DNA from: Escherichia coli
GTDB lineage: Bacteria; Pseudomonadota; Gammaproteobacteria; Enterobacterales; Enterobacteriaceae
DNA: 64,000 nucleotides
Assembly: GCF_024700885.2 (NCBI RefSeq)
Contig: NZ_CP117016.1
Strand: one strand, 5' to 3'
Shown here: positions 25,838-38,153 of the stretch, one piece after another
How the letters are laid out: each line of letters opens with the position of its first letter
Position numbering within the stretch: the first letter of the stretch is position 1
Made by a program: the position numbers and the translations under genes
Notes under the pieces: generated by a model
Seen by the model: the letters and a program-made list of their open reading frames with translations, nothing else
Told to the model about the DNA's origin: nothing
Database searches by the model: none

Positions 25838-25913
25838 GCCGATATAGCTCAGTTGGTAGAGCAGCGCATTCGTAATGCGAAGGTCGTAGGTTCGACTCCT
25901 ATTATCGGCACCA
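25838..25913 (+). tRNA. thrW: tRNA-Thr (anticodon CGT)
   Basis: 76 nt GCCGATATAGCTCAGTTGGTAGAGCAGCGCATTCGTAATGCGAAGGTCGTAGGTTCGACTCCTATTATCGGCACCA: acceptor stem pairs, T-loop GGTTCGA, encoded CCA. Confidence 0.95.
25897..25913 (+). repeat. attL core (3' end of thrW)
   Basis: TCCTATTATCGGCACCA, repeated with one G missing at 38138-38153. Confidence 0.8.
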
Positions 25914-26077
25914 TCACCTAGTTTTCCCAAGTCAACCCACATCAACAAAATCATTTAAAAACATATATATTACGTTGTTTTCATACGTTTGAGGTCAACC
26001 CTTGTCTCTTGAAATCAACACGCGGTTGGGGGCACAATCAGGGGCATGTTCTGTTCGGTCTAGGAAATGTGCCCCCA

Positions 26078-27268
26078 ATGATGCTGAATGCCCGCAAGGT
26101 TGAAGCTGCGAAAGGAAAAGAGAAGAGCTACAAGCTGTTTGATGGAGGTGGCCTATATCTTCAGGTCGAACCTAATGGCTCGCGTTACTGGCGTATGAAA
26201 TACCGTTTTGCTGGTAAAGAGAAACGATTGTCCTTTGGTGTTTATCCAACAGTCACACTTGCTGATGCCAGACAAAAACGAGAAGACGCGAAGAAACTAC
26301 TCGCAGCAGGTGAAGATCCCGGCGAAGTCAAAAAAGCCAAAAAGCAGGCTTTAAATGCAGCGATTGAGACACTTAACCCATTCAGAGAAGTGGCGTTAGA
26401 GTGGCACAAAATGAAATCACCCAAATGGTCTGAGGGCTATGCTTCCGACATCATTGAGGCATTCGAGAAAGACATTTTCCCGCATATTGGGCACAGACCT
26501 ATAGCTGATATTCAGCCCCTTGAACTGCTTGAAGTTCTGAGATTGATAGAAGCTCGAGGCGCTATGGAGAAAGCGAAGAAAGTCCGTCAGCGATGCGGTG
26601 AAGTTTTTCGCTATGCCATCGTAACGGGTAGGGCAATCTACAATCCGGCACCGGATCTTGCCAGTGCGATGCAAGGACATGAAGCAGTCCACTATCCATT
26701 CCTCAAAGCCAACGAACTACCGGAGTTCTTTAATGCCCTTAATTCTTATTCAGGAAGTCCAATTGTATTGTTGGGGGCGCATTTACTTATCCTGACAGGT
26801 CTACGAACTGGAGAACTACGAGCAGGTGAGTGGCGAGAGGTGGATTTTGATAATGCGGTGTGGGAGATCCCAAAAGAACGTATGAAAATGCGTAGGAGCC
26901 ATATTGTCCCGTTGTCAAAACAAGCATTATCCCATCTCAAAAGTTTGAAAGAACTAACTGGGAACTACCCGCTGATGTTCCCTGGACGCAACGATCCTAG
27001 CAAATTTATGAGTGAAGCAAGCATTAATCAGGTGTTTAAACGTATTGGATATGCAGGGCGTGTTACGGGGCATGGTTTCAGGCATACGATGAGTACAATC
27101 CTACATGAGAAAGGATTTAACAGCGCTTGGATTGAAACCCAGCTTGCTCATTCGGACAAAAACTCTATTCGTGGAATTTATAACCATGCCCAATATCTCG
27201 AAGGGAGAAGAGAAATGATGCAATGGTATGCTAATTATTTATCTGAGCTAATTGGTACTCATAAATGA
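26078..27268 (+). CDS. int: Tyrosine recombinase, P4-type integrase
   Basis: ORF 26009-27268 (TTG); likely ATG 26078: MMLNARKVEAAKGKEKSYKLFDGGGLYLQVEPNGSRYWRMKYRFAGKEKRLSFGVYP (P4-int N-terminal arm domain); catalytic HGFRHT...H..R..Y region near the C-terminus. Confidence 0.9.
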   Translation: MMLNARKVEAAKGKEKSYKLFDGGGLYLQVEPNGSRYWRMKYRFAGKEKRLSFGVYPTVTLADARQKREDAKKLLAAGEDPGEVKKAKKQALNAAIETLNPFREVALEWHKMKSPKWSEGYASDIIEAFEKDIFPHIGHRPIADIQPLELLEVLRLIEARGAMEKAKKVRQRCGEVFRYAIVTGRAIYNPAPDLASAMQGHEAVHYPFLKANELPEFFNALNSYSGSPIVLLGAHLLILTGLRTGELRAGEWREVDFDNAVWEIPKERMKMRRSHIVPLSKQALSHLKSLKELTGNYPLMFPGRNDPSKFMSEASINQVFKRIGYAGRVTGHGFRHTMSTILHEKGFNSAWIETQLAHSDKNSIRGIYNHAQYLEGRREMMQWYANYLSELIGTHK

Positions 27269-28089
27269 ATATTTTAAAAATTAATAATACTGATTCTCTG
27301 CTCAGAGATTACTACCAGTTGGATGAAGCTTCAGAAAAAATTGGTTGTAGTGAAAAGGATATACTCTGGTTTGCCAGAGAACGAGATGTAGAGCTATGCA
27401 TGGAATTCCATGATGATGAGTATGATGTTTCATGTGGTTTGAAGATTGATGGTCAAATGGATGAGTTCTTATCTAATCTGAAATATTTACCACGAGATAG
27501 AAATGGCAATATTATGTTGTCAGACTTAAGTTCTATAAGAATCCCTGATGAAGATAATTTAATTGATAAAAATGGTTTTATTCGATGTTTCATATCCGGT
27601 TTATGGGCTGTTGATTATGAATATAAAGATCTGTTAGTTAAGCATGAGGGGCAACCGGATTCCTGGCCTATTCATTTTCTACTGGCGGGTACGCCTAATA
27701 TAAATTGTAAGGTAATTCTTTATGTAAATTATGATGAAAAAGAAAATTATTATCTTTTTGAGGTTTTGTGGATTACAAAGGTACAGATTCAAAAATTCAT
27801 TGATATAGTCTTATGCGAACAAAAGCGGATAAAAAACGCCAATAAATATAAATCACAATCTGAGGCGCAAAAACAAAAACATGCTGTTCCTCGAGCTGAA
27901 ATACTCATGGCTATTATTTCGCTCTATCATCGTGATATGAGGCTAAGAAGAGAGAGTCCAGCAGCGATAGCTGATTATCTTTTTCAACATGCCAGTGAGT
28001 TCTGGCCTAAGACCGGAGAACCGCCTTTGAGCTATGATACTGTTGTTAGTTTGCTACGTAGTTGCATGAAAAACACTAAGTTTAACTAA
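27265..28089 (+). CDS. Hypothetical protein, translationally coupled to int (ATGA overlap), AT-rich
   Basis: 274-aa ORF; no family recognised by eye; possible N-terminal HTH (LDEASEKIGCSEKDILWFARE). Confidence 0.6.
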   Translation: MNILKINNTDSLLRDYYQLDEASEKIGCSEKDILWFARERDVELCMEFHDDEYDVSCGLKIDGQMDEFLSNLKYLPRDRNGNIMLSDLSSIRIPDEDNLIDKNGFIRCFISGLWAVDYEYKDLLVKHEGQPDSWPIHFLLAGTPNINCKVILYVNYDEKENYYLFEVLWITKVQIQKFIDIVLCEQKRIKNANKYKSQSEAQKQKHAVPRAEILMAIISLYHRDMRLRRESPAAIADYLFQHASEFWPKTGEPPLSYDTVVSLLRSCMKNTKFN

Positions 28090-28214
28090 ATATTAACAAT
28101 TATTGTGGCTAATGATTTTGGATTTTTTTCATTAGTCACATTTTTCTCATTTATAACCTATGTTTTAATTTTCCGTGTTGAAGCCAATAGACTTAGATAA
28201 ACGGAGAATGATGA

Positions 28215-28421
28215 ATGTTATCTAAACATGATAATACTACTTTGCAACGACCTTCAATGGATTCTCTGATCGATATGAAGTTTATTACTTCCGATTGTTT
28301 ATTAAGTGATAAATGGATTTATCGATTGATTTCTCTGAATCGCTTTCCAAAACCTATAAAAATAGGTCGGATGTCACGATGGCGCGCTGCTGATTATTAT
28401 AAGTGGCGAGATGGGTTTTAA
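28215..28421 (+). CDS. alpA: AlpA-family transcriptional regulator / excisionase-like protein
   Basis: 68 aa; SDKWIYRLISLNRFPKPIKIGRMSRWRAADYYKW matches the AlpA/Vis HTH pattern (..iyrli..g.FPkPikiG.rs.W...ev..W). Confidence 0.75.
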   Translation: MLSKHDNTTLQRPSMDSLIDMKFITSDCLLSDKWIYRLISLNRFPKPIKIGRMSRWRAADYYKWRDGF

Positions 28422-28537
28422 GAAAACTCAGGTCAACATTTTGAGGGAATGAGAAATAAGGCAAGAGCAATTAATAAAGGGAATAGATTATCACCTACTC
28501 CCTAAGCCTTAATTGATAGTTAGTAATATTTAACTGA

Positions 28538-28711
28538 TTAGCCTTTAGGGTCAATCCCGCGTGATTGGAGTTCTTTGCGTAAAATTCTTTTAATCCAAGT
28601 TGCCAACGCGCTATCTCCATCTTTGCGCATTTCGTTTTCGAGTTGCAACCTAAAATCGTCGGTAAGACGCATTTGGAATGGTGGAGAACGTTTCTCTTGT
28701 GGTGTTGACAT
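28538..28711 (-). CDS. Small ribbon-helix-helix (Arc/MetJ-like) DNA-binding protein, candidate satellite repressor
   Basis: 57-aa ORF below the ORF-track cutoff, translated by hand: MSTPQEKRSPPFQMRLTDDFRLQLENEMRKDGDSALATWIKRILRKELQSRGIDPKG; beta-strand FQMRL plus two helices; its start codon lies inside the operator repeat. Confidence 0.6.
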   Translation of the reverse strand: MSTPQEKRSPPFQMRLTDDFRLQLENEMRKDGDSALATWIKRILRKELQSRGIDPKG

Positions 28712-28751
28712 GGTAATTACCCTAGAATATGATGACTACATGGTAATTACC
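28705..28751 (+). promoter_or_regulatory. Early rightward promoter (TTGACA-17-TATGAT) bracketed by two ACATGGTAATTACC operator repeats
   Basis: TTGACA 28705-28710, TATGAT 28728-28733; 14-bp direct repeats at 28708-28721 and 28738-28751, each with the perfect palindrome GGTAATTACC. Confidence 0.65.
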
Positions 28752-28842
28752 ATTGTAAGTATAGTTCGCTTGTAAAAGCAATGCCCGATTGTGCGGGAAC
28801 ACAAATCGGGCATTTAACCAACCGTTATAAGAGGTAACGAAG

Positions 28843-29019
28843 ATGGCTAAACAGAAGTGTACTTGGTTATTTGCGGCGATCAACCGCAGTCAACGCAATG
28901 CCCGTCCTGTGATGTTAAGGATCACCGCAGATAACGAGCGGTCAGCGCGGCGCAGACTTGCCCCGGACTATGTACTGAGCTTTGCCGGGCGCATTCCCTG
29001 CGGAGGTGAACATGCGTAA
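28843..29019 (+). CDS. Icd-like host cell-division inhibitor family small protein
   Basis: 58-aa ORF translated by hand: MAKQKCTWLFAAINRSQRNARPVMLRITADNERSARRRLAPDYVLSFAGRIPCGGEHA; resembles remembered Icd-like proteins of P4-type elements (..ARP..L.v.A..E..ARR.La....LSFAaRlPv). Confidence 0.6.
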   Translation: MAKQKCTWLFAAINRSQRNARPVMLRITADNERSARRRLAPDYVLSFAGRIPCGGEHA

Positions 29020-29371
29020 TTATCCGCACCCCGGCGAACGCTGGCAGCATGAACGTGGCTGGACGGTCACGATTATCCGATTAATAGAAGCATCGCCCTC
29101 TGTGGCACTGGTTAATCCTGAATTCAGCTGTGAAGTGCTGATACGTCATGACAGCGACAACCAGCTTTCTTCCTGCCCTCTGGCATGGTTTGAACAGCGG
29201 TATACGCGCCTGTTTGATGTACCGCTCTTTAAGCCTGCACCAGCTCCTGCAGGCGGTAGTGGTTCCGGCCCGCTGACACTGCATCCGTCTGTGCTATTTA
29301 TCCGCTGGCGGGAGCGTAGCATATGGCGTTCTGCTGAGCCTGACGACGGTCACTATTCAAAGTTTCTCTGA
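29012..29371 (+). CDS. Hypothetical protein (satellite early operon)
   Basis: ORF 28982-29371; ATG 29012 overlaps the stop of the preceding gene (ATGCGTAA). Confidence 0.55.
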   Translation: MRNYPHPGERWQHERGWTVTIIRLIEASPSVALVNPEFSCEVLIRHDSDNQLSSCPLAWFEQRYTRLFDVPLFKPAPAPAGGSGSGPLTLHPSVLFIRWRERSIWRSAEPDDGHYSKFL

Positions 29372-29402
29372 CAAAATACCGCTGAAAACGGAGTAATCCA
29401 CG

Positions 29403-29687
29403 ATGAATATTTCAAACGGGCACAACGGTGCTCAGGGCCACACTTTGCCTGAAAAACACAATACCGGTGCTTTTGCCTATGGGTTGTCAGAGGACAGTTT
29501 CGGAAAGCTGACCCGCGCAAGAAATGCCTGCGACATGCTCCAGCTTCTCTTTTCTGAATACCCGTCTCAGGCCGGAGCACTGGACGCTGGCTGTGCGCAT
29601 GGTGTCGCCGCGCTGATGGAGTACCTGCTGGCAGATTTGACGGATATTGCACACAGCTGCGCACTGATTGAAGGAGGTGCCAGATGA
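29403..29687 (+). CDS. Hypothetical protein (satellite early operon)
   Basis: 94-aa ORF, same strand and GC style as neighbours; ATGA overlap with the next ORF. Confidence 0.55.
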   Translation: MNISNGHNGAQGHTLPEKHNTGAFAYGLSEDSFGKLTRARNACDMLQLLFSEYPSQAGALDAGCAHGVAALMEYLLADLTDIAHSCALIEGGAR

Positions 29688-30067
29688 ACCAGCCGCAGGT
29701 TTCCATTTTCCCGGCAGAAATGACCACCGCGCTTTACCGGCGGGCTATTGCTTCAGCATGGCGGCAGAAAATGCTGAACGAAACTGGCAGTGATCAGTAT
29801 GGTCCGCACAGCCTGACGGTGGAGCGTATTGAAATGGCCATTGCGCTGCATATCGAGTGCGTACTGATTAACGAGTACGGCGAAGTGCAGGGCGCCGCTG
29901 CCGCGCTGGCACTGCTGACTGACATGCTGGAGCCGTCACTGCTGACCGCGCCGCCGGTACTGACCGCGCGCGGCTGTGAAGTGATGGCGGAGATGTACCG
30001 CACGCTTCCGGCGGCCTTTGATGACTTCTGCAGTACCGGTGTGACGTTGTATGAGGGGGAAGTATGA
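29684..30067 (+). CDS. Hypothetical protein (satellite early operon)
   Basis: 127-aa ORF, ATGA-coupled on both sides. Confidence 0.55.
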   Translation: MNQPQVSIFPAEMTTALYRRAIASAWRQKMLNETGSDQYGPHSLTVERIEMAIALHIECVLINEYGEVQGAAAALALLTDMLEPSLLTAPPVLTARGCEVMAEMYRTLPAAFDDFCSTGVTLYEGEV

Positions 30068-32736
30068 CAATACAGACGGTTACGCAGATTTCAGCCGCCG
30101 CACGGGGGAAATGGCCCGTTATTCTGCAGATGCTGCGTATTGATGTACCTGAAAACGGCAGGCACGGTCCCTGCCCGAAATGTGGGGGCAAGGATCGTTT
30201 TCGCCTTGATGACCTTGACGGGCGCGGGACGTGGATCTGCAGCCAGTGTGGCAATGGTGACGGTCTGGATCTGGTTAAGCTCGTAACCGGTTACAGCGTC
30301 AGAAAGGCTGCGCAGGAGGTGGCGCAGGTGCTTAATGTGCCGAATATGCAGGAACTGCCTGTTAAGCCTGCCAGACAAAAAGCCCCTAAACGCGACATGG
30401 GTCTTACCGTGGCGGCGCTGATGAAAGAGAGCCACACGGGAGAAAGCGCCTATCTGACAGGAAAAGGGTTCGCCGGATACCCGGCCTCTCTGACCGGAAG
30501 CGTGCAGCATATCAGCGGTAAGGATTTCCCTGCCGGTTCCCTGCTGTTACCACTCACGACCAACACCGGAGCCGTGACCGGTGCACAGCTTATCGCCCCG
30601 ACGGGTGAAAAAAGCATACTGCCCGGCAGCACGATGAAAGGCGCGTTTGTGTCGCTCAGCCCGTTACCGTCTGAACCACCGGTACAGGTGGTGATTACCG
30701 AAGGTTACGCTACGGCGCTGACGGTAAGTCAGCTCACTGCCGGATGCGTAGTGGCTGCCATATCTGCGGGCAACCTGCCCAATGTGGCGCAGTCGCTGCG
30801 GGCACGCTGGCCTGAGGTAAAAATTATCATCGCCGGTGATAACGATTTTCAGGACGGAGATGAGAATCCCGGCAGAGCCTTTGCTGAACGGGCGGCAAAA
30901 GCTGTTGGCGGCTGGATGACGCTGCCACCAGGAGAGATTAAGGCTGACTGGAATGACTTTCATCGGGAGCACGGTATTACCCGTGCCCGTGAAGCCTTTC
31001 GCAACGGTCTGGTACTGTGCGGGGAAGGCCGCACGCAACTGCCGCACGGGTTCCGTCTTACCCAGGAATATCTCTGGTATGAAAAGCAGGTACAGCGCAA
31101 CGGTGAGACGGAGATCCAGAACGTCAAAATATGCAGCCCGCTGCGCGTGACGGCAATCACCTGCGATGCCGATGGCGGTAACTTCGGACGACTGCTGGAA
31201 TGGGAAGATACGTGGGGTGAGTGTCGCCGCTGGGCGATGCCGATGGAAATGCTGAGCGGCAGTGGTGAGGAACTGCGCCGGGTACTGCTGGTTAACGGGC
31301 TGTCTTATATCAGCACCACCGGTGAGGCACGCGCACGCCTGATGGAATATATCTCACTGTGTAAACCGGAACGCCGCGTGACCTGCGTCAGTCGTACTGG
31401 CTGGCATGGTCAGGTTTACGTCCTGCAGGATGAGGTCAGCGGTGAAGGTGCAGAGGGTGTCATTCTCCAGACCACTTCCGTGCAGGGGCGTGATTTCCGC
31501 GTGTCGGGCACAACAGAGGAATGGCGGGAGCATGTATCCCGCTACTGTACCGGCAACTCCCGCGTGGCATTTGCTGTCAGCCTGGCCTTTGCTGCACCAC
31601 TGTTACGGCTGGTTGGTATGGACGGCGGCGGCTACCACCTCAAAGGGGAATCGACAGACGGTAAGACCACCACCATGAAAGCGGCAACCTCCGTCTGCGG
31701 CGGGCCTGACTACTGGCAGACATGGCGGGCCACCGGCAACGCGCTGGAGGGATGCGCCAGCCGCCGCAACGATGCCGCCATGATGCTTGATGAGATCCGG
31801 GAAGTTGACGGACGCGAGGCAGGCAATATCGCCTACATGCTGGCAAACGGTCAGGGCAAGGGCCGTGCCGGTACGGACGGTGAGCTGCGTACCCGTAAGC
31901 AGTGGCGCCTGTTGTTCTTTTCAACTGGCGAGTTGTCTCTGACCGAACATGCGGCAAAGGCCGGTGAGCGTACTTTTGCCGGGATGGAAGTCAGGATGAT
32001 CCAGATCCCCAGCGATTCCGGGAAGTTTGGCGTTTTTGAGGAGCTGCACGGCTTCGACAGCGGCAAGGCTCTGGCAGAGCATCTTGAATGGGCCACGTCC
32101 TGCTACTACGGTTCGCCGTTCCGGGAGTGGCTGAAAGCACTGACCGCTGATCTTAACGGACTAACGGCACAGGCAAAATCGCTGATGAAGGAATATGCTG
32201 CCGCCCTGACTCCGAAAGATGCAGGCAATCAGGTGGGCCGGGCTGTGAACCGCTTTGCTCTGGTGGCGATGGCAGGTGAACTGGCAACCCGTCTGGGTAT
32301 CACCGGCTGGCCTGAGGGTGAAGCACTGCGGGCAACCCGCGTCTGCCTGAACGCATGGCTGAAAGATCGCGGGCACACCGCCAATCAGGAAGATATCGCC
32401 GCACTGGAGCAGGTTCGCAGTTTCTTTACCGCGAATCAGTACAGCCGCTTTGCAGACTGGTATGACGAGCGCAACCGCCCCGGCAATATGGTGGGCTGGC
32501 GCAGGGTGGAGAAAGGCAGTACCGCGCAGGGCACGGAAGCTGTCACTACGTTCTATGTCATGCCGTCCGGCTGGAAAGAAATCTGCAGGGGATTTGACCC
32601 GCGCAAGGTGGCGCGTCTGTGCGCAGATCGTGGATACCTGCTGCCCTCCACAGATGGCAAACTCCAGACAACCATTCGCCCGCCAGAGATGAATCCCCGC
32701 AGGCTCTATGTCTTCAACAGCGAGGTGCCTGGTTAA
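30064..32736 (+). CDS. P4 alpha-type bifunctional DNA primase / replicative helicase
   Basis: 890 aa; N-terminal Zn ribbon CPKCGGKDRFRLDD...CSQCG, Toprim-like acidic motif IIIAGDNDFQDGDENPG, helicase Walker A GESTDGKTT. Confidence 0.88.
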   Translation: MTIQTVTQISAAARGKWPVILQMLRIDVPENGRHGPCPKCGGKDRFRLDDLDGRGTWICSQCGNGDGLDLVKLVTGYSVRKAAQEVAQVLNVPNMQELPVKPARQKAPKRDMGLTVAALMKESHTGESAYLTGKGFAGYPASLTGSVQHISGKDFPAGSLLLPLTTNTGAVTGAQLIAPTGEKSILPGSTMKGAFVSLSPLPSEPPVQVVITEGYATALTVSQLTAGCVVAAISAGNLPNVAQSLRARWPEVKIIIAGDNDFQDGDENPGRAFAERAAKAVGGWMTLPPGEIKADWNDFHREHGITRAREAFRNGLVLCGEGRTQLPHGFRLTQEYLWYEKQVQRNGETEIQNVKICSPLRVTAITCDADGGNFGRLLEWEDTWGECRRWAMPMEMLSGSGEELRRVLLVNGLSYISTTGEARARLMEYISLCKPERRVTCVSRTGWHGQVYVLQDEVSGEGAEGVILQTTSVQGRDFRVSGTTEEWREHVSRYCTGNSRVAFAVSLAFAAPLLRLVGMDGGGYHLKGESTDGKTTTMKAATSVCGGPDYWQTWRATGNALEGCASRRNDAAMMLDEIREVDGREAGNIAYMLANGQGKGRAGTDGELRTRKQWRLLFFSTGELSLTEHAAKAGERTFAGMEVRMIQIPSDSGKFGVFEELHGFDSGKALAEHLEWATSCYYGSPFREWLKALTADLNGLTAQAKSLMKEYAAALTPKDAGNQVGRAVNRFALVAMAGELATRLGITGWPEGEALRATRVCLNAWLKDRGHTANQEDIAALEQVRSFFTANQYSRFADWYDERNRPGNMVGWRRVEKGSTAQGTEAVTTFYVMPSGWKEICRGFDPRKVARLCADRGYLLPSTDGKLQTTIRPPEMNPRRLYVFNSEVPG

Positions 32737-32770
32737 GGCTTTGCGTGAGTCTTATTTATTAAGGGTAACA

Positions 32771-32958
32771 GGTGAAACAGGTGGAACAACCGTATTTTAC
32801 AGGGCTGAACCTGTTCCACCTTCTGAAATAGTGAGGTGGAACAGATGTAACGCCAGCCAATCCGCTGTTCCACCTTGTTACCCGCGATGTTCCACCGGTG
32901 CAGTGTATATAAATGCCTTATAAAACAAAGCCGTAACACATGTTTCACCTGTTCCACC
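32771..32958. repeat. Origin-type iteron cluster: 8 copies of GGTGGAACA/TGTTCCACC around an AT-rich core
   Basis: Forward copies at 32771 (variant GGTGAAACA), 32780, 32835; reverse copies at 32812, 32866, 32888, 32941 (variant TGTTTCACC), 32950; AT-rich tatataaatgccttataaaacaaag at about 32905-32929. Confidence 0.75.
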
Positions 32959-33046
32959 GCATCAGGGACATAAAGCAGACTGAAACAGAGGGCATTTTTA
33001 TCTGGCTGGCTTTCATAGCCACGTCTGAATAACCGCAAGCGCCCGT

Positions 33047-33102
33047 TGTGCCAGCCACCACACACTGAACACCGATAGTGTGCTTGTGTCAGCCACGACA
33101 CA
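33047..33102 (+). promoter_or_regulatory. Ogr/Delta-dependent late promoter (two TGT-N12-ACA sites) upstream of sid
   Basis: TGTGCCAGCCACCACACA (33047-33064) and TGTGTCAGCCACGACACA (33085-33102), centres 38 bp apart; sid ATG at 33137 preceded by AGGAG. Confidence 0.65.
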
Positions 33103-33136
33103 ATTGACGTAACGAACCAACCCGACAGGAGAAGTC

Positions 33137-33880
33137 ATGAACAATACCGCAGTAAATAACAACCTTTCCACTTTTCCGGCTGTAACGCAGCGGGCACTGG
33201 AAACCATGAACACAGCCAGAAACGCATGGCTTGAAGCACGTCGTCAGCAGAAAGCGGCAGCGGATAATATTGCGACAATCCGCCAGCGTCGCGCTGAAAT
33301 GGAAGCCACGACGAACACACTGAATGAGGAGTGGCGCACGCTGTTTCGTGAAAGTCAGGGCGTGATCTCAAAGGAAATGAAAAAACTGCGCACGGAAATT
33401 GCGCTGGGACGAGAAACGCTTGAGGATTTTGATGAGCTGCTGGCGGCTCAGGAAAGCGAAAATGCACTTTTGCCGCAGAAAGCTGCAGAATTAGCCGGAA
33501 AGTATATCCACGCGCATAACATTCTTGTGGATATTCGCGCAAAACAAATCTGGGAGGATTTTATGCAGTCGCATGGAAAAGTGCTTATTCAGACGCTGAG
33601 CCTGCTTAAATCCACAATGGGCCGGGAAGCCAGTGCCGTTGTGGGTGTGGTGAATTCAGTTAATGACCCGGACACAGTGCTGAAAGACTTTATTCATAAA
33701 TATATCACCAGACCGGCTCTGGCTAACGATGCGATGCCTGAGCAGGACCCGGTGTTTAAACTGGCGGGAGTTGCCCCGGATTATGCGGCGCGTCTGGATT
33801 TCAGTAATCAACTCTCTCCGGCAGCTATGCATAAAATTAAGGTTCGTCAGGAACTTGCTGAGAAGGAGAAAGCAGTATGA
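33137..33880 (+). CDS. sid: Sid-like capsid size-determination (external scaffold) protein
   Basis: 247 aa; segment EEWRTLFRESQGVISKEMKKLRTEIALGRETLEDFDEL parallels remembered P4 Sid (DDWRTAFRAAGGVLSDELKQRHIE...); size and position fit. Confidence 0.7.
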   Translation: MNNTAVNNNLSTFPAVTQRALETMNTARNAWLEARRQQKAAADNIATIRQRRAEMEATTNTLNEEWRTLFRESQGVISKEMKKLRTEIALGRETLEDFDELLAAQESENALLPQKAAELAGKYIHAHNILVDIRAKQIWEDFMQSHGKVLIQTLSLLKSTMGREASAVVGVVNSVNDPDTVLKDFIHKYITRPALANDAMPEQDPVFKLAGVAPDYAARLDFSNQLSPAAMHKIKVRQELAEKEKAV

Positions 33881-34428
33881 CGGCCCGAGGCACGCCTGAC
33901 CAGGCACTTACCAGTTTTCGGAATGCCCGTATTCTGTGGGCCGGACATAATGAGAGCCGAAAAGCCGTTGAACAACAGATAACATCTCTCCTCGCTGCCA
34001 CAGAAAAACCAGCAGATTATGCCCGACAGCTCGAATTACTGCGGGAACGTCTGGATGTGCTGAAATGGCAAATTAACTGTGCTGCGCGCGAATGCATTTA
34101 CTCGCAGCATTTACTGATGGAGGCCTGCACAGAAGCCGCTCTCAGCAATTTTATGCAGGCGAATGGGGCAGCCCTGACATCTGCACTGGCTCCGTTCCTG
34201 AAGGGGCGCGGAGGGGTTGACGTTGCGTCCCGTATATTACGCAGTGCTCTGGTTCGCCAGCTGGCAATAACACCGCCTGAATTTGCCGGGGATTATCGTG
34301 AGATCCTGGATGAATCCGGTTTGATGCTTGACCCCGGGATGATTCGTGATTGCCAGGGTTCTTACACCCCGGCACAACATCTGCGTTTTCAGCAACGCCT
34401 GAATGACATTAACGATATACAGGAGTGA
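33877..34428 (+). CDS. psu: Psu-like polarity-suppression / capsid decoration protein
   Basis: 183 aa; FMQANGAALTSALAPFLKG parallels remembered P4 Psu FMQQHGTALAAALAPELMG; ATGA-coupled to sid. Confidence 0.7.
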   Translation: MTARGTPDQALTSFRNARILWAGHNESRKAVEQQITSLLAATEKPADYARQLELLRERLDVLKWQINCAARECIYSQHLLMEACTEAALSNFMQANGAALTSALAPFLKGRGGVDVASRILRSALVRQLAITPPEFAGDYREILDESGLMLDPGMIRDCQGSYTPAQHLRFQQRLNDINDIQE

Positions 34429-34433
34429 TATTA

Positions 34434-34706
34434 ATGGCACTTAAATGTCCGGAATGCGGTACAGTTGCACACGCCAGAACAGCAGCCTATGAAGCTCCGT
34501 CAGTTAAACGCTCGTGGTATCAGTGCCAGAATCTGGAATGTTCCTGCACATTTACGGCACTGGAGAGTGTGGATAAGATAATCATGAAACCCCGGCGCAA
34601 TGAACAGGAACCAGACAAATCACAAACCCCGGTAAAACAACAGCAAACGCTCAATCGCTATGGCTCCGCGTCAAAACTGTCAAGCCGTCAGCAGATTCCT
34701 GTCTGA
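34434..34706 (+). CDS. Ogr/Delta-family zinc-finger late transcription activator
   Basis: MALKCPECGTVAHARTAAYEAPSVKRSWYQCQNLECSCTFTALESV: CxxC-N22-CxxxxC Ogr/Delta finger; AGGAG RBS at 34421-34425. Confidence 0.85.
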   Translation: MALKCPECGTVAHARTAAYEAPSVKRSWYQCQNLECSCTFTALESVDKIIMKPRRNEQEPDKSQTPVKQQQTLNRYGSASKLSSRQQIPV

Positions 34707-34727
34707 TTAGAAAAAAAATGCCCACGT

Positions 34728-34754
34728 AATCCCGGTCGAGTACTGGGATTTTTA
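34728..34754 (+). terminator. Rho-independent terminator of the sid-psu-delta late operon
   Basis: aatcccgg tcgagta ctgggatt + ttt (8-bp stem with one G-U, T-run). Confidence 0.65.
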
Positions 34755-34916
34755 ACACCTTACCCCTGGCTGGCCTGAGAGCGCATGAGTGCATGTCTAT
34801 GGCGCATGAAAACGCATGAGTCTCATGCACCATTTTTGACGCGAAAGCCCTTGTGTGGTGGCTTCTGAGACGATTAATGAGGTGCATGAAAACCAGTCTG
34901 TTAAGTGAAGCGGGAA

Positions 34917-34935
34917 GGCGTGCGGGGCTGCGCAC
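34917..34935. other. Candidate P2/P4-type cos (cohesive end) sequence
   Basis: GGCGTGCGGGGCTGCGCAC matches the remembered 19-nt P2/P4 cohesive end GGCGAGGCGGGGAAAGCAC at 12 of 19 positions (both ends conserved); location after psu/delta, as in P4. Confidence 0.35.
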
Positions 34936-35260
34936 GTAGCAGGGTTAAATGGTCAATTCTGGCGCAGCTCACGACATTAAGTCAGCCTCAATAGATGTAC
35001 GTGTTGGTAGGGGTAATTCGCTACTTTTTTGTATCCTAAATTGTATGGTTTGATGCTGATCGTTTCTTCACCGCACCTGCAGAGATATCAATTCAATGTG
35101 GACAAAAATGAGTCTGGCTCTTTCCGTATCACTAGAATTGCCAGTATTGTTAGGGATGATGCCCATATCATACGGAGGGAGCCAGTGGGGGCGATTGCGC
35201 GTGGAAAGTGCTTTGGATTTATTCATCGGTTTTATGATTCTACATAAGGAGCAAAGGTAC

Positions 35261-35289
35261 TTGTATCGTATGAAAAAAAATAGTATAGA
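35261..35289 (+). promoter_or_regulatory. Candidate retron promoter (TTGTAT-17-TATAGA)
   Basis: -35 at 35261-35266, -10 at 35284-35289; places the transcription start at the first base of the a1 repeat (~35295). Confidence 0.45.
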
Positions 35290-35294
35290 TATAA

Positions 35295-35457
35295 TGCTCC
35301 TTACGCGTTATGGCATAGTTATATGCTAGTCGGGCGATTAGCCAGACTCGAACTTATTGAACGGTATTAGGGTTGCGCTTGGTGTGCCTCTGGATTGCAC
35401 TCCATGCTGTCGCGCAATCCAGAGGCACACCAAGCGCTTCCTTTAGGTAAGTGAGTA
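35295..35457 (+). ncRNA. Retron msr-msd non-coding RNA (predicted)
   Basis: a1 TGCTCCTTAC (35295-35304) pairs with a2 GTAAGTGAGTA (35447-35457); G35305 directly 3' of a1 in CTTAC-G-CG context; two short msr hairpins (35311-35328, 35329-35347); 24-bp perfect msd hairpin 35375-35398/35414-35437; immediately upstream of effector and RT genes. Confidence 0.7.
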
Positions 35458-35529
35458 AAAACAGCACCTTCTTCGATTTATGATGAAGGTGCTGCAATCG
35501 TAACGTTTTTTGTATACACGGATAGTATA

Positions 35530-36498
35530 GTGGCTGAGACATACGAAGATAAAGTTGCTAATCATGTTTCAGAGTGGGAAATGGAAAATTTCCGTGTATG
35601 TTATGATGATCAGGTTATTTTCTTATGTGGTGCGGAAGTACTTCCTCAAGGAAGTGTTCAGACTTCAATGAGAGGGCATTTTTATCACTATTGCCTGAAT
35701 AAAAATAAAGATATAGCTGATAAAATAATTCTTGCCGAAAACTTCAAAAAATATCTTCAAAATAATCATTATCCAGACTTAATAACTTTTGAGCATGATG
35801 TTGCAAGTATATCTAGTTTAGTTGTTATTTTCTTGGAAAGCAGTGGTTCAATTGCTGAGTTAGGTGTTTTCTGTAATATTAGTGATGTCAATAAAAAATT
35901 ATTGATATTTGTTCCATCAGATGAAGTTGAAGGTGACAAGAAAGAGTCTTTCATTTACTTAGGGCCTTTATTGTTTTTAAAAGAAAAGGTCAATGAAAAA
36001 GCATTTAAGATTTATCCAAAACCCACTAATGGTTCTGATTACTCCGAGCATTTAGAGATTATGGCTGATGACTTGGCTGAACTATTACCTAGAAGTGGTA
36101 AGTTTGAAAGCTTCGATCCTGACAATTTAGGGCATATAGCTTTTCTTATATGCAGAATTGTGCATTTAGTAATGCCTATTAAGCTAAAGGAAATATTAAA
36201 TTGTTTAAAAATAATAGGTATCAATAAATATACTCTGACTGAGGTTGAAAGAATTTTGTTTTTATTGGAAACATTGGGTTTTATAAATATTTATCCGTAT
36301 GGCGATTTAAAATACTATTATTCAATGCAAGCCAGGCAAAATCTTAAATTAGGGAAAAATAAAACCGGATTCACAATCGATGAGGCTGGTATTTTTACTG
36401 ATATTAGTGTTTTTATCAATGACAATAAATTATGTAGTGATAAAAAAAGACGGCTGGTTTTGAAAGGCATTAAGGAGAAGCATAATGGACATAATTAA
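35530..36498 (+). CDS. Retron effector: nucleoside deoxyribosyltransferase-like N-domain plus C-terminal winged-helix-like domain (St85/Ec73-type layout)
   Basis: 322-aa ORF (GTG start; ATG at 35581 is an alternative); Rossmann-like VIFLCGAE and FLESSGSIAELGVF (candidate catalytic Glu) typical of NDT-like retron effectors; overlaps the RT start by 14 nt. Confidence 0.7.
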   Translation: MAETYEDKVANHVSEWEMENFRVCYDDQVIFLCGAEVLPQGSVQTSMRGHFYHYCLNKNKDIADKIILAENFKKYLQNNHYPDLITFEHDVASISSLVVIFLESSGSIAELGVFCNISDVNKKLLIFVPSDEVEGDKKESFIYLGPLLFLKEKVNEKAFKIYPKPTNGSDYSEHLEIMADDLAELLPRSGKFESFDPDNLGHIAFLICRIVHLVMPIKLKEILNCLKIIGINKYTLTEVERILFLLETLGFINIYPYGDLKYYYSMQARQNLKLGKNKTGFTIDEAGIFTDISVFINDNKLCSDKKRRLVLKGIKEKHNGHN

Positions 36499-37417
36499 AA
36501 AAATCGCAGATGAAACTCTAATGCCGGTATCAAAAGTATCTGCTTTTATATTTACAGCCCCATATAGATATAAAGTATATCCCATCCCCAAAAGGAATGG
36601 TGGGTTTAGGGAGATTGCTCAACCGTCAAGGGCATTAAAGTTTATGCAAAGGATTGTTATTGCTGAACTAGAGAAAGTACTTAAGGTTCATGAAAACGCA
36701 TATGCTTATGTCAAAGGACGTAGTATAAAAGATAATGTGGAAAAGCATCAAAGAAACTCTTATATTTTGAAAGTTGATTTCTGCGACTTTTTTAATAGCA
36801 TAAACCCTTACGACCTTGAGTTATGTTTAAAAAACAATGGGTTAGACTCATTGTTAAGCTCACAAGAATTATTGAATAAACTTTTTTTCTATAAGAAAAG
36901 TAAAAGAGGTGCTTTATCAATGAGCATCGGGGCACCTAGTTCTCCATTTTTGTCAAATGCGATTATGTATAAGTTTGATTCAGTCATTAGTGATATGTGT
37001 TCAAATAAAAATATTACTTATACAAGATATGCTGATGATCTTACATTTTCTACTAATGAAAAAGGTATTTTGTATGAATTCATACATGAAATAGATAAAG
37101 TTCTTGAGGAGATAGATAGTCCTAAATTAAAACTAAATGATAAGAAAACCATATTTGCATCTAAAAAATGCAATCGTCATATAACAGGAATTGTTATTAA
37201 TAACGAAGAAAAACTTTCAATTGGTAGAGATAAAAAACGTTACTTAAGTAGTTTAATTCATAAATTCTCGCTTAATGCACTTAATGAGGAAGGAGTTGAA
37301 CATTTAAAAGGGTATTTGGCGTATGTAAATAAAATTGAACCTTCATTCATTAGCAGAATGAAAAGGAAATATGGAGTCGAAGTTGTCAACTCCATAATCA
37401 CATTTAATCCATTATAA
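36485..37417 (+). CDS. ret: Retron-type reverse transcriptase
   Basis: 310 aa; RT motifs FREIAQPS, NAYAYVKGRSIKDN, KVDFCDFFNSI, IGAPSSPFLSN, catalytic YTRYADDLTFS and retron-typical ITGIVIN (VTG) motif; no maturase, endonuclease or other extra domains. Confidence 0.9.
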   Translation: MDIIKKIADETLMPVSKVSAFIFTAPYRYKVYPIPKRNGGFREIAQPSRALKFMQRIVIAELEKVLKVHENAYAYVKGRSIKDNVEKHQRNSYILKVDFCDFFNSINPYDLELCLKNNGLDSLLSSQELLNKLFFYKKSKRGALSMSIGAPSSPFLSNAIMYKFDSVISDMCSNKNITYTRYADDLTFSTNEKGILYEFIHEIDKVLEEIDSPKLKLNDKKTIFASKKCNRHITGIVINNEEKLSIGRDKKRYLSSLIHKFSLNALNEEGVEHLKGYLAYVNKIEPSFISRMKRKYGVEVVNSIITFNPL

Positions 37418-37894
37418 ATGTGAACTTATTATATTTATAATGGTTGTGCTTTTTTCTTGTACCTTAGGGGTGTAAAAGAATGTCATCATGAAGATAATTA
37501 AAAAATGAATGGCAATAAGAGTAATAGGTAACATTTTTTCAATATCACTTAAATGGCGATGCCTTTTTTGTGTAATAACTTCCTCTTCTCTTTTGAAAGG
37601 AGTTATACCTATCTTGACCTCCATCTCCTGAATTACTGTAAACTTAGCAGCATTAATTCTTTTATAGGAAGTAATTAGATTTATCCAATAGATATTAATT
37701 ACGACTCCAGCGAGAGAGATTAAGATTACCCAAATAGGCTGTATTGTTGGCTTTAAAGAAAAATATCCAACAAGCGGTAAAATAGAAGAGTTTAAGGCTA
37801 ATAAAAATGTATTTGACTTAAGTCTTCGATCACTTATTCTATCCGCCATCTCAACGCATGTTTTATATATTTCTATGACTTTATCATCCGTCAC
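37412..37894 (-). CDS. Small predicted 3-TM membrane protein of unknown function (candidate defence/abortive-infection effector)
   Basis: 160 aa; amphipathic N-terminal helix IEIYKTCVEMADRISDRRLKSNTF, then hydrophobic segments FLLALNSSILPLVGYFSL, IWVILISLAGVVINIYWINLI, MLPITLIAIHFLIIFMMTFFY; AT-rich; stop overlaps the RT stop. Confidence 0.65.
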   Translation of the reverse strand: MTDDKVIEIYKTCVEMADRISDRRLKSNTFLLALNSSILPLVGYFSLKPTIQPIWVILISLAGVVINIYWINLITSYKRINAAKFTVIQEMEVKIGITPFKREEEVITQKRHRHLSDIEKMLPITLIAIHFLIIFMMTFFYTPKVQEKSTTIINIISSHL

Positions 37895-38137
37895 TAATAG
37901 TATCCTTATAAATTTCTGAGTTGTTCAAATAAATGTTATCATATATTTTTATCAACGTAATATGTATTTTTACGTATTTTTAACTGTGAGAGATACATAG
38001 TGATTGTTGGGTGCATGTACAATCCTTGATACTTAACAATGAAAGCGTAGTTGTGGGGGGGGGGCATATTTGGGGGCATTACTATTTAATCTTTCTTGAT
38101 TTTTATTATAAAACAACTGGTTGTATTGATGTTTTGT

Positions 38138-38153
38138 TCCTATTATCGCACCA
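38138..38153 (+). repeat. attR core (pseudo-thrW 3' end)
   Basis: TCCTATTATCGCACCA = attL 25897-25913 minus one G; next base T also shared. Confidence 0.75.

What the first reader, a model, noticed from the sequence alone, without database searches (positions are those of the whole stretch)
27265..28089. AT-rich 274-aa orphan ORF translationally coupled to the integrase
Seen: its ATG overlaps the int stop (ATGA at 27265-27268), so it is co-transcribed with int. Its composition is markedly AT-rich compared with int and the replication module. The N-terminus (LDEASEKIGCSEKDILWFARE) looks like an HTH. The C-terminal ~70 aa (AEILMAIISLYHRD...SPAAIADYLFQHASEFWPKTGEPPLSYDTVVSLLRSCMK) looks like a separate helical module, preceded by a KQ-rich linker. 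Inference: this is a second variable cargo position (int-proximal) of the satellite. Candidate roles are a recombination directionality or regulatory factor, or a single-gene anti-phage or anti-helper function.
Basis: inference. Interest (0 to 1): 0.5.

Follow-up and report, generated by a model that had tools for sequence, protein, structure and literature searches.

The report
Integrase-coupled hypervariable satellite gene family
This is a real, conserved but fast-diverging gene wedged between the integrase and the AlpA switch gene of a P4-like phage satellite; it occupies the same slot as a gene reported as needed for excision in Vibrio satellites, so it is most likely part of the satellite's cut-out-and-activate machinery rather than random cargo.

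Summary
A 274-aa ORF (27265-28089) starts at an ATGA overlap with the integrase stop codon and has 35% GC, against 45% for int and 59% for the primase.

It is not an orphan and not interchangeable cargo.
- It belongs to a small, unannotated family in Gammaproteobacteria: 43 representatives among 1.84 billion proteins.
- It has no Pfam, NCBIfam, PHROG or PADLOC match and no fold match.
- It is under purifying selection (dN/dS about 0.1).
- In all 13 informative contexts, family members lie downstream of a P4-type integrase, usually overlapping or abutting it. In 12 of those 13, an AlpA-type gene follows 99-125 nt later.
- About 78 of the 79-83 E. coli genomes with this integrase clade carry a family member, in three alleles only 24-58% identical, although the integrases are 87-96% identical. 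The middle domain is the most variable part.

Vibrio PICMI satellites have an 'integrase-overlapping gene' (iolg) in the same slot, also typically with an ATGA overlap. Deleting it abolished excision in that study. No sequence homology to two PICMI iolg types was detectable.

Best reading: an iolg-type DNA-binding accessory factor of the Int/AlpA excision-induction module. The mechanism is inferred, not shown. Moderate interest; a new variant of a recently described kind.

The parts
25838..25913 (+). tRNA-Thr (CGU), thrW. The attL core TCCTATTATCGGCACCA lies at 25897-25913.
   Evidence: ARAGORN; Rfam tRNA, 71.8 bits. The repeat of the 3' end near 38138-38153 was read.
26078..27268 (+). P4-type tyrosine integrase (Arm-DNA-bind_3 + Phage_int_M + Phage_integrase). 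An alternative TTG start lies at 26009.
   Evidence: Pfam E 9e-28, 4e-35 and 1e-25. RefSeq annotation of the identical locus in HS30-1.
27265..27268 (+). ATGA overlap: the start codon of X overlaps the stop codon of int.
   Evidence: Sequence read. In relatives the int-to-X spacing is an overlap of 4, 8 or 11 nt or a gap of 1 or 3 nt; in more distant members the gap is 29-96 nt.
27265..28089 (+). Gene X, 274 aa: the finding. An int-coupled, iolg-type gene of an unannotated family.
   Evidence: dN/dS is 0.107. No curated family matches.
27265..27414 (+). X residues 1-50: predicted MerR/excisionase-type winged HTH (b16-18, a19-26, a30-39, b45-48; the wing continues to residue 62).
27415..27789 (+). 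X residues 51-175: hypervariable beta-rich middle domain with no fold match.
27790..27879 (+). X residues 176-205: long helix ending in a low-confidence KQ-rich linker.
   Evidence: AF2 helix 172-202; pLDDT below 50 at residues 194-201.
27880..28086 (+). X residues 206-274: the most conserved module, a 4-5 helix bundle with the motifs (E/Q)xHAxxRxExLMAxI and HAxxFWPxxxxPPLSxDTI.
   Evidence: Alignments A1 and A2. Across the 29 sequences L214, P254 and L255 are invariant, and R210, A216 and W247 (with G112 of the middle domain) are nearly invariant. Mean pairwise identity is 38%.
28104..28153 (+). Hairpin (arms 28104-28115 and 28129-28140) followed by a U-rich tail. Probably the terminator of the int-X unit; it may also act as an operator.
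   Evidence: Inverted repeat I4, 92% complementary. RNA fold -15 kcal/mol, z -6.06, 0 of 200 shuffles as good. A hairpin occurs at the same place in 12 elements, z -1.5 to -6.6.
28161..28169 (+). TGnTTTAAT: a candidate extended -10 element of an alpA promoter, within a conserved GATGnTnnAAT motif.
   Evidence: Spacer alignment of 8 elements. This is inference only; the promoter scan did not list it.
28215..28421 (+). AlpA-family small HTH gene (excisionase/activator type). In this window a nonsense change at 28419 cuts it to 68 aa.
   Evidence: Pfam Phage_AlpA E 2e-4 and PHROG 66 'excisionase and transcriptional regulator' E 1e-5. It aligns with K-12 AlpA. The stop is G to T relative to HS30-1, which encodes 96 aa.
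28538..28711 (-). 57-aa Arc/RHH-like gene, divergent from the early promoter.
   Evidence: PHROG 228 'Arc-like repressor', E 3e-3. A 57-aa reverse-strand gene sits at the same position in Pantoea L010.
28705..28751 (+). Strong sigma-70-like promoter (TTGACA-17-TATGAT) bracketed by two perfect 14-nt repeats, ACATGGTAATTACC.
   Evidence: Promoter scan, 11 of 12 matches. Direct repeat D3 and inverted repeat I2.
28843..32736 (+). Early/replication operon: icd-like gene, two hypothetical genes, DUF5375, and a Zn-ribbon/Toprim/DUF927 primase (30064-32736).
   Evidence: Pfam; RefSeq annotation.
33137..34706 (+). Helper-exploitation genes: sid-like, psu, and delta/ogr.
   Evidence: RefSeq annotation of the identical locus.
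35296..37417 (+). Retron cargo: msr (35296-35365), St85-family effector (35530-36498), reverse transcriptase (36485-37417).
   Evidence: Rfam msr 53.4 bits, gathering score 52. NCBIfam 2e-66. PADLOC NDT_II-A 2e-79. RefSeq annotation.
38138..38153 (+). attR core, TCCTATTATCG-CACCA: a copy of the thrW 3' end lacking one G. The island is about 12.3 kb.
   Evidence: Read. An exact or 3-mismatch ungapped search misses it because of the 1-nt deletion.

Best explanation
Gene X is a backbone component of the integrase-X-AlpA module of a P4-like/PICI-like satellite. It is the enterobacterial positional counterpart of the 'integrase-overlapping gene' (iolg) of Vibrio PICMI satellites.

**Proposed mechanism**
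- X is transcribed with int from the int promoter in the prophage state.
- It is translated by termination-reinitiation at the ATGA overlap, which would tie its translation to that of Int.
- The int-X transcript ends at the hairpin at 28104-28140.
- X binds satellite DNA through its N-terminal MerR-type winged HTH.
- Its conserved C-terminal helical bundle contacts a conserved partner, either Int or AlpA.
- When the helper phage switches on alpA, X acts with Int and AlpA to allow excision and induction.
- The hypervariable middle domain sets allele-specific specificity.

**Shown:** the gene is real and constrained, the overlap, the synteny, the domain layout, the hypervariability, and the hairpin.

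**Inferred:** DNA binding, the partner contacts, and the role in excision. The excision role rests on analogy with PICMI iolg only.
For: 1. **Real, constrained gene.** Full-length homologs exist, and dN/dS is 0.09-0.11.
2. **Strict synteny.** In the 13 contexts with informative flanks, X lies downstream of a P4-type integrase, overlapping or abutting it in most; in Rheinheimera two small genes intervene. In 12 of the 13, X lies 99-125 nt upstream of an AlpA-type gene. This holds whether the replication module is a DUF927 primase, a D5 primase or DnaB.
3. **Restricted to these loci.** It was never found in phage or plasmid records.
4. **Fixed in the clade.** 65 + 11 + 2 E. coli genomes carry a family member, out of 79-83 with this integrase clade. 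The exceptions examined are IS-disrupted.
5. **Experimental precedent.** In PICMI115 the gene in the same slot, also with an ATGA overlap, is needed for helper-induced excision, packaging and transfer. There, int and iolg are constitutive and alpA is phage-induced (PMC10803314).
7. **Separate transcription units.** A conserved hairpin right after X supports int-X and alpA being transcribed separately.
Against: - No sequence homology to the two PICMI iolg types tested (hhalign probability 0.3% and 1.2%; HMM about 0 bits). The functional transfer is therefore positional only.
- In the PICMI study the iolg deletion was complemented with int plus iolg together, not iolg alone. An effect on int expression is not excluded.
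- X alleles differ greatly (27-58% identity) between elements with 96% identical Int and 74-100% identical AlpA. A protein that must fit Int, AlpA and the att DNA would be expected to track them. Among the five enterobacterial elements, X identity does not correlate with Int identity (rho -0.07).
- A related thrW element has int and alpA with no gene between them, so X is not universally required.
Confidence: 0.4

Rival explanations
1. X is the helper-phage sensor that controls the alpA promoter. It would be a MerR-like or Stl-like transcription factor bound in the X-alpA spacer. Its hypervariable middle domain would bind a helper-phage protein and so license (or de-repress) alpA transcription; excision would follow indirectly.
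For: - The tightest linkage is X to alpA, with a spacer of nearly constant length (99-125 nt) that carries inverted or tandem palindromic repeats just upstream of a conserved -10-like motif.
- The layout (N-terminal HTH, variable middle domain, conserved C-terminal module) and the size are, from general knowledge, like SaPI Stl.
- Old alleles are swapped as a cassette with a sharp junction at the hairpin, as expected for a specificity determinant.
- Both the PICI and the PICMI papers leave open how the helper switches on alpA (PMC6092414; PMC10803314).
- Loss of excision in the PICMI iolg deletion fits an activator.
Against: - L003 and L004 have an identical alpA promoter region but X N-terminal domains only 43-46% identical. 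That is awkward for a sequence-specific regulator of that promoter.
- The core of the inverted repeat (G..TAATG) tracks AlpA similarity rather than X similarity.
- A separate Arc-like repressor with an obvious operator pair already sits at the early promoter.
- X is co-directional with alpA, not divergent as stl is.
- There is no direct evidence of DNA binding.
Confidence: 0.25
2. X is an accessory 'moron' that exploits the constitutive int transcript. It would be a single-gene anti-phage, anti-helper or anti-competitor-satellite factor (for example, exclusion of rival satellites that use the same thrW site), and it would diversify through an arms race.
For: - X has low GC in every element, 0.34-0.35 in Enterobacterales and 0.45 where its neighbours are 0.57-0.61.
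- Allelic divergence is extreme and the cassette is exchanged by recombination.
- The host can do without it: IS insertions hit it in some genomes.
- PICMI slots hold 13 unrelated families, which looks cargo-like.
- The slot is empty in a related thrW element.
Against: - No PADLOC hit.
- It was never seen outside an integrase/alpA locus, nor in phages or plasmids, unlike typical defence genes.
- One family is kept at one position across elements whose integrases are only 27% identical and whose replication modules are unrelated.
- The satellite's actual cargo hotspot is elsewhere, after delta.
- No enzymatic or toxin-like motif is visible.
Confidence: 0.2
3. X is itself the recombination directionality factor (excisionase) of this integrase, and the downstream AlpA-like protein acts only as a transcription activator.
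For: - The N-terminal fold class (MerR/excisionase-type wHTH) is the one used by Xis proteins.
- X is coupled to int.
- AlpA homologs act as activators rather than excisionases in E. coli PICIs (PMC6092414).
Against: - At 274 aa with three modules, X is unlike the small basic excisionases of tyrosine integrases.
- X is 27-32% identical between elements whose Int is 95-96% identical and which use the same thrW site, while AlpA is 74% identical.
- hhalign finds no relation to the AlpA/Xis family (probability 0.2%).
- In PICMI, AlpA alone triggers excision and structurally resembles TorI and Xis.
Confidence: 0.07
4. The ORF is a chance or decaying reading frame with no function.
For: No family annotation exists. 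The sequence is AT-rich. Some copies are interrupted by IS elements.
Against: - Full-length intact homologs are found across several orders of Gammaproteobacteria.
- dN/dS is about 0.1.
- The AF2 model is confident (pLDDT 79).
- The C-terminal motifs are conserved.
Confidence: 0.01

Closest known systems
IOLG, the 'integrase-overlapping gene' of PICMI satellites of Vibrionaceae (Barcia-Cruz et al. 2024, PMC10803314)
   Same: - Same slot and strand, between a P4-type int and alpA.
- Same ATGA-type overlap with the int stop.
- The host element is a small int-alpA-primase satellite.
- The occupants are hypervariable and unannotated: 13 families in PICMI, and deeply split alleles here.
- I confirmed the PICMI layout in two loci, L028 and L031.
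   Different: - No detectable sequence similarity.
- The PICMI iolg proteins tested are shorter (196 and 225 aa) and show no recognisable N-terminal HTH motif.
- The host element here is a P4-like satellite with sid/psu/delta and a DUF927 primase, inserted at thrW rather than next to fis.
- The excision phenotype is known only for PICMI115.
SaPI Stl / PICI Rpr master repressors (from general knowledge and PMC6092414)
   Same: - The gene lies between int and the xis/alpA-type switch gene.
- Similar size (about 250-290 aa), with an N-terminal HTH followed by variable and C-terminal modules.
- Extreme allelic diversity next to conserved neighbours.
   Different: - X is co-directional with alpA and lies downstream of int. 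Stl lies upstream of int and is divergent from str/xis.
- No sequence or fold match.
- Repressor activity and binding of a phage protein are untested.
- The PICMI iolg deletion loses excision rather than gaining it.
AlpA / Vis / TorI-type small excisionase-regulators (Pfam Phage_AlpA, HTH_17)
   Same: Same general winged-HTH fold class is predicted for the X N-terminus. Both are genetically linked to P4-type integrases.
   Different: - X is three to four times longer and has two extra modules.
- No profile-level similarity (hhalign probability 0.2%).
- No Pfam hit reaches its threshold.
- The true AlpA-type gene is the next gene downstream (28215-28421).
MerR-family transcription regulators
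   Different: - A 125-residue beta domain is inserted between the wHTH and the long helix.
- No MerR Pfam hit.
- The C-terminal module is unrelated to known effector-binding domains.
YfjH of E. coli K-12 prophage CP4-57 (intA-yfjH-alpA)
   Same: An uncharacterised gene occupying the interval between a P4-type integrase and alpA.
   Different: It is on the opposite strand, is 318 aa long, and is unrelated (hhalign probability 0.3%).

Membership tests
iolg class (integrase-overlapping genes of int-alpA satellites; PMC10803314) | Start codon overlaps the int stop by 1-13 nt, ATGA being the commonest form | tested here: met
   ATGA at 27265-27268. Relatives overlap by 4, 8 or 11 nt or lie 1 or 3 nt away.
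iolg class (integrase-overlapping genes of int-alpA satellites; PMC10803314) | Lies between int and alpA on the same strand | tested here: met
   int 26078-27268, X 27265-28089, alpA-like 28215-28421. The same order holds in the other contexts, except that two small genes follow int in Rheinheimera.
iolg class (integrase-overlapping genes of int-alpA satellites; PMC10803314) | The host element is a phage satellite with an int-alpA-primase core | tested here: met
   12.3-kb thrW island with int, alpA, a DUF927 primase, sid, psu and delta.
iolg class (integrase-overlapping genes of int-alpA satellites; PMC10803314) | Required for helper-induced excision | not testable with these tools
   Known only for PICMI115, and there complemented with int plus iolg together.
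iolg class (integrase-overlapping genes of int-alpA satellites; PMC10803314) | Sequence homology to one of the 13 PICMI iolg/icg families | tested here: not met
   Two types were tested (L028 and L031): hhalign probability 0.3% and 1.2%; HMM -2.2 to +2.3 bits. The other 11 types were not available.
MerR / HTH_17 winged-HTH DNA-binding superfamily | N-terminal beta-alpha-alpha-beta-beta wHTH fold | tested here: inconclusive
   [not shown]
MerR / HTH_17 winged-HTH DNA-binding superfamily | Match to the Pfam MerR or HTH_17 model above the gathering score | tested here: not met
   No hit for the window protein. HTH_17 reaches only E 0.066 in 2 of 29 members.
AlpA/Vis/Xis recombination directionality factors | Small (about 60-100 aa) protein matching Phage_AlpA or excisionase profiles | tested here: not met
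   274 aa; no Pfam or PHROG hit; hhalign against an AlpA alignment gives probability 0.2%.
SaPI Stl / PICI Rpr master repressors | Transcribed divergently from the xis/replication operon, with int downstream of it | tested here: not met
   X is downstream of int and co-directional with alpA.
SaPI Stl / PICI Rpr master repressors | Represses the island and is inactivated by binding a helper-phage protein | not testable with these tools
   Needs reporter and interaction assays.
Known anti-phage defence systems | Match to a PADLOC model, or occurrence in defence islands, phages or plasmids | tested here: not met
   No PADLOC hit; no tblastn match in phage or plasmid collections.
P4-like satellite cargo hotspot (variable unrelated genes; PMC9122126, PMC13586616) | The position holds unrelated gene families in closely related elements | tested here: not met
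   The same family fills the slot in about 78 of 79-83 E. coli genomes with this int clade. The unrelated cargo sits after delta instead: a retron here, an SMC/AAA gene in Pantoea.

The most novel reading that the evidence does not exclude
X is the missing helper-phage sensor of Gram-negative satellites: a MerR-like DNA-binding protein made constitutively with Int. Its hypervariable middle domain would recognise a helper-phage protein, and X would then license alpA expression and/or assembly of the Int-AlpA excision complex. That would make it a functional analogue of SaPI Stl working with the opposite logic (an activator or licensing factor). Allelic cassette exchange would re-target satellites to new helpers. 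The unrelated PICMI iolg families would be alternative sensors plugged into the same slot.
Probability: 0.2. Interest if true: 0.8.

Novelty: new variant of a known kind. Interest (0 to 1): 0.5.

Why it matters
How Gram-negative satellites (P4-like, PICI, PICMI) sense their helper phage and trigger AlpA-dependent excision is stated as an open question in both the PICI paper (PMC6092414) and the PICMI paper (PMC10803314).

This work makes three points that bear on it.
- The integrase-overlapping gene slot first described in Vibrio PICMIs also exists in P4-like and PICI-like elements of Enterobacterales, Aeromonas and relatives.
- There the slot is filled by one coherent family with a recognisable DNA-binding domain, a hypervariable middle domain and a conserved C-terminal module.
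- The gene is exchanged as an allelic cassette.

This gives a tractable E. coli system with P2-type helpers and three natural alleles next to near-identical integrases. It can be used to test what the int-coupled gene does: excision cofactor, helper sensor, or exclusion factor. If X proves to be only an accessory moron, the finding is of minor interest.

Tried and rejected
- **Curated libraries.** Pfam, PHROGs, PADLOC and NCBIfam gave nothing for X. Scanning all 29 family members gave only noise plus weak HTH_17 and NUMOD1 hits.
- **PDB sequence search with a profile.** Nothing below E 0.066.
- **tblastn against phage and plasmid collections.** No match.
- **Literature search by RefSeq accession (WP_001023348).** No paper.
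- **CP4-57 YfjH as a homolog.** Rejected.
- **X N-terminus related to AlpA.** Rejected at the profile level.
- **Homology to PICMI iolg.** Rejected for two types. An eyeballed C-terminal resemblance (ERH..., P.S..TI) scored about 0 bits and is dropped.
- **EcCICFT073 c1499/c1500 and the EcCIMP1 regulators as counterparts.** They are capsid-like and PerC-like genes located elsewhere.
- **Shared motifs between the int upstream region and the X-alpA spacer.** Only short AT-rich 8- to 10-mers, and none conserved across elements.
- **Exact or ungapped search for attR.** Failed. The site was found by eye; it carries a 1-nt deletion.
- **Correlation of X divergence with Int or AlpA divergence among five close elements.** Not informative: rho -0.07 and 0.36, n = 10.
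- **A genome-contig scan with the family alignment.** Returned only 3 loci. The broad alignment was too divergent to seed a scan at all.
Full report
**1. The observation**

The integrase reading frame ends ...ACT CAT AAA TGA with the TGA at 27266-27268, and the ORF's ATG is at 27265-27267, so the ATGA overlap is real. No good Shine-Dalgarno sequence precedes it, so translation by termination-reinitiation is plausible; this is inference.

GC content is 0.35 for the ORF, 0.45 for int and 0.59 for the primase. The low-GC block runs from 27265 to about 28780 and also contains the next two genes.

**2. The element**

The window holds a 12.3-kb island inserted in thrW. The tRNA-Thr(CGU) gene is at 25838-25913. 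A degenerate copy of its 3' end, TCCTATTATCG-CACCA, lies at about 38138-38153.

Gene order, from Pfam and from the RefSeq annotation of the locus in strain HS30-1, which differs from the window at only 10 positions between 25800 and 38060:
- P4-type integrase
- X
- AlpA-like small HTH
- a divergent 57-aa Arc-like gene
- icd-like gene
- two hypothetical genes
- DUF5375
- Zn-ribbon/Toprim/DUF927 primase
- sid-like, psu and delta
- a St85-type retron (msr, effector, RT) and a RipA-like membrane gene

So it is a P4-like satellite. Its co-directional order, int-alpA-alpha-sid-psu-delta-cargo, is not the canonical P4 order int-hotspot-psu-delta-sid-alpA-epsilon-alpha (PMC8628076). It resembles the PICI layout.

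**3. X is a real gene of a small, unannotated family**

- No curated library recognises it.
- A word-indexed search found 18 clusters: 94% identity in Enterobacter/E. coli, and 54-61% in Pantoea, Erwinia and Citrobacter. All are about 275 aa and align end to end.
- An exhaustive profile search of 1.84 billion representatives found only 43 proteins, nearly all 250-300 aa.
- A second profile search added Aeromonas, Rheinheimera and Arsukibacterium. Every named hit is 'hypothetical protein'.
- dN/dS is 0.107 against the Citrobacter copy and 0.092 between two Pantoea copies.

'Orphan' is therefore wrong, and a spurious ORF is excluded.

**4. Architecture**

The AlphaFold2 model built on the 17-sequence alignment has mean pLDDT 78.9. 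It shows four parts.
- Residues 16-62 have a beta-alpha-alpha-beta-beta topology.
- Residues 56-171 form a beta-rich domain with pLDDT mostly 80-92.
- A long helix spans 172-202 and ends in a low-confidence KQ-rich stretch.
- A 4-5 helix bundle covers 210-269.

Across 29 diverse members, mean pairwise identity is 32% for the N-terminal HTH region, 18% for the middle domain and 38% for the C-terminal module. The C-terminal module carries the family's best motifs, (E/Q)xHAxxRxExLMAxI and HAxxFWPxxxxPPLSxDTI.

The HTH assignment remains model-based: no Pfam HTH model reaches its threshold, and hhalign sees no relation to AlpA.

**5. Synteny: a backbone gene, not cargo**

I examined every context I could fetch. 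These were E. coli alleles (L003, L004), Pantoea (L010), an enterobacterial genome (L016/L017), metagenomic clades (L012/L013, L014/L015, L024/L025, L026, L027, L011, L009) and Rheinheimera (L034).

In each of these, X lies downstream of a P4-type integrase (Arm-DNA-bind_3 + Phage_integrase). The int-to-X spacing ranges from an 11-nt overlap to a 3-nt gap in the enterobacterial group, and from 29 to 96 nt in more distant members. X is followed after 99-125 nt by an AlpA-type gene.

There are two partial exceptions:
- Rheinheimera, where two small genes (one of them a second alpA) separate int from X.
- The weakest family member (L027), where the downstream gap is 556 nt.

The replication module differs between these elements (DUF927 primase, D5-type primase or DnaB), and so does the cargo after delta: a retron here, an SMC/AAA gene in Pantoea, and HATPase or Fic genes elsewhere. 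X itself was never found in phage or plasmid records.

In E. coli complete genomes, the integrase clade occurs in 83 genomes, 79 of them with near-full-length copies. The window allele of X occurs in 65, the L003 allele in 11 and the L004 allele in 2. The integrase-positive genomes I inspected that lack an intact X are IS-disrupted (L002, L005).

A more distant thrW element, with int 69% identical at the nucleotide level, has int, a 428-bp gap and then alpA, with no X. The gene is therefore lineage-specific, not universal.

**6. Hypervariability by allele replacement**

| Pair | Int (aa %) | X (aa %) | AlpA (aa %) | Primase (aa %) |
|---|---|---|---|---|
| window vs L004 | 96 | 27 | 74 | 65 |
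| window vs L003 | 95 | 32 | 74 | - |
| window vs L016 | 87 | 29 | 64 | 68 |
| L003 vs L004 | 96 | 58 | 100 | - |
| window vs Pantoea L010 | 64 | 58 | 79 | 91 |

For L003 vs L004, synonymous divergence in X is saturated (dS about 5), while int has dS 0.31. Nucleotide identity is 57-63% (one 60-nt window each at 68, 70 and 75%) through X and jumps to 98-100% at the hairpin just after X. These are therefore old alleles moved in by recombination, not rapid in-place mutation.

X is also consistently about 10 GC points below int and 20 below the primase in every element.

**7. The X-alpA spacer**

Directly after the X stop, every element has an inverted repeat. In the window the arms are 28104-28115 and 28129-28140. 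Its RNA fold is -15 kcal/mol, z -6.06, with a U-rich tail. Across 12 elements z ranges from -1.5 to -6.6, and in 7 of them none of 200 shuffles folds as well.

Several are classic intrinsic terminators (L003, L004, L011). In the P0039/P0041 clade the spacer instead carries two tandem palindromic units that look like operators.

Downstream lies a conserved GATGnTnnAAT motif, extended -10-like, about 60 nt before the alpA ATG. I read this as int-X forming one transcription unit and alpA having its own promoter. This is inference; the simple promoter scan did not list the site.

**8. The key comparison**

The PICMI study (PMC10803314) describes in Vibrio satellites a gene that overlaps int by ATGA, which the authors call iolg. 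Its findings:
- iolg lies between int and alpA.
- In PICMI115, deleting iolg abolished helper-induced excision, packaging and transduction.
- int and iolg appear constitutive, and alpA is the phage-induced trigger.
- 21 of 35 PICMI subfamilies have an iolg (overlap 1, 4 or 13 nt), 4 have a contiguous gene and 3 have none.
- The occupants fall into 13 families of unknown function.

I retrieved two PICMI loci through homologs of the PICMI115 AlpA. Both show int, an ATGA-overlapping iolg (196 and 225 aa) and alpA, next to fis.

Neither iolg is detectably related to X or to the other: hhalign probability 0.3% and 1.2%, and HMM about 0 bits. X therefore meets the positional definition of iolg but is a different protein family in a different class of satellite.

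One caveat applies to the precedent. The iolg deletion was complemented with int plus iolg together, so an effect through int expression is not excluded.

**9. Interpretation**

The strict linkage to int and alpA, across elements whose other modules are unrelated, argues for a role in the recombination/induction switch rather than cargo. So do the gene's absence from any other context and the PICMI phenotype.

I commit to this reading: X is a DNA-binding accessory factor made with Int in the prophage state and needed, with helper-induced AlpA, for excision and induction (confidence 0.4).

The main difficulty is that X does not co-vary with Int or AlpA. This is why a helper-sensing regulator of alpA (0.25) and a constitutively expressed exclusion or defence moron (0.2) remain serious rivals. 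X being the excisionase itself is unlikely (0.07), and a non-functional ORF is excluded.

**10. Novelty and score**

The slot and its importance were described in 2024 for Vibrio PICMIs. Four things are new here:
- The slot is found in P4-like and PICI-like satellites of Enterobacterales and relatives.
- A coherent protein family with a defined three-module architecture occupies it.
- The gene is fixed within an integrase clade.
- Alleles are exchanged as a cassette with a junction at the terminator hairpin.

I rate this a new variant of a known kind, with interest 0.5. If the middle domain proves to be the helper sensor, interest would be about 0.8.

Noticed in passing
window 28215-28505 (stop at 28419-28421): The AlpA-like gene is cut to 68 aa by a G-to-T nonsense change at 28419, relative to the otherwise near-identical island of strain HS30-1 (96 aa). 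The HTH core is kept and a 27-aa tail is lost. Frequent inactivation of alpA in P4-like elements is noted in PMC8628076.
   Followed up: partly
window 28538-28751: A strong sigma-70-like promoter (28705-28733, 11 of 12 matches) is bracketed by two perfect 14-nt copies of ACATGGTAATTACC (28708-28721 and 28738-28751; core palindrome GGTAATTACC). It sits next to a divergent 57-aa Arc/RHH-like gene (28538-28711, - strand). This looks like the satellite's immunity switch, in place of the P4 CI RNA.
   Followed up: partly
window 35296-37894: Retron cargo lies in the delta-to-attR hotspot: msr (Rfam 53.4 bits, gathering score 52), a St85-family NDT-type effector, the reverse transcriptase, and a RipA-family membrane gene on the opposite strand. 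Rfam STnc400 (53 bits, below its gathering score of 80) overlaps the likely msd region at 35368-35486.
   Followed up: partly
window 25897-38153 (whole island): The gene order int-X-alpA-...-alpha-sid-psu-delta-cargo-attR, all co-directional, differs from the canonical P4 order reported for 77% of type A P4-like elements (PMC8628076). It is a P4/PICI-like hybrid layout.
   Followed up: partly
L004 9287-10291; L016 10007-11008: Sister elements with 87-96% identical integrases carry a P2-family major capsid protein gene and a 283-290 aa hypothetical gene right after alpA, inside a P4-like satellite backbone.
   Followed up: no
NZ_CP128592.1 (H23); L005 7346-8858; L002 7295-8274: IS elements repeatedly hit this spot: IS1 inside X, IS1 between int and a 5'-truncated X, and ISKpn26 with loss of everything after int.
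   Followed up: partly
L012 2433-2480; L024 984-1035: In one distant clade the X-alpA spacer holds two tandem palindromic units: GCCGGTAAC[G/A]GCTACCGGC twice in L012, and CCGGTAA[A/G]GCTTTCCGG twice in L024. They look like paired operators rather than a simple terminator.
   Followed up: no
window 38050-38075: A run of about 10 G (GTGGGGGGGGGGC) lies just upstream of attR. From 38061 onward the window and HS30-1 go out of register, which suggests a length difference in this homopolymer.
   Followed up: no
L034 4346-7173: The Rheinheimera element at ssrA/smpB has two alpA-type genes, one directly after int and one after X. It also has a DnaB helicase and a phage capsid gene, so it is a capsid-encoding PICI-like element carrying an X homolog.
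   Followed up: no
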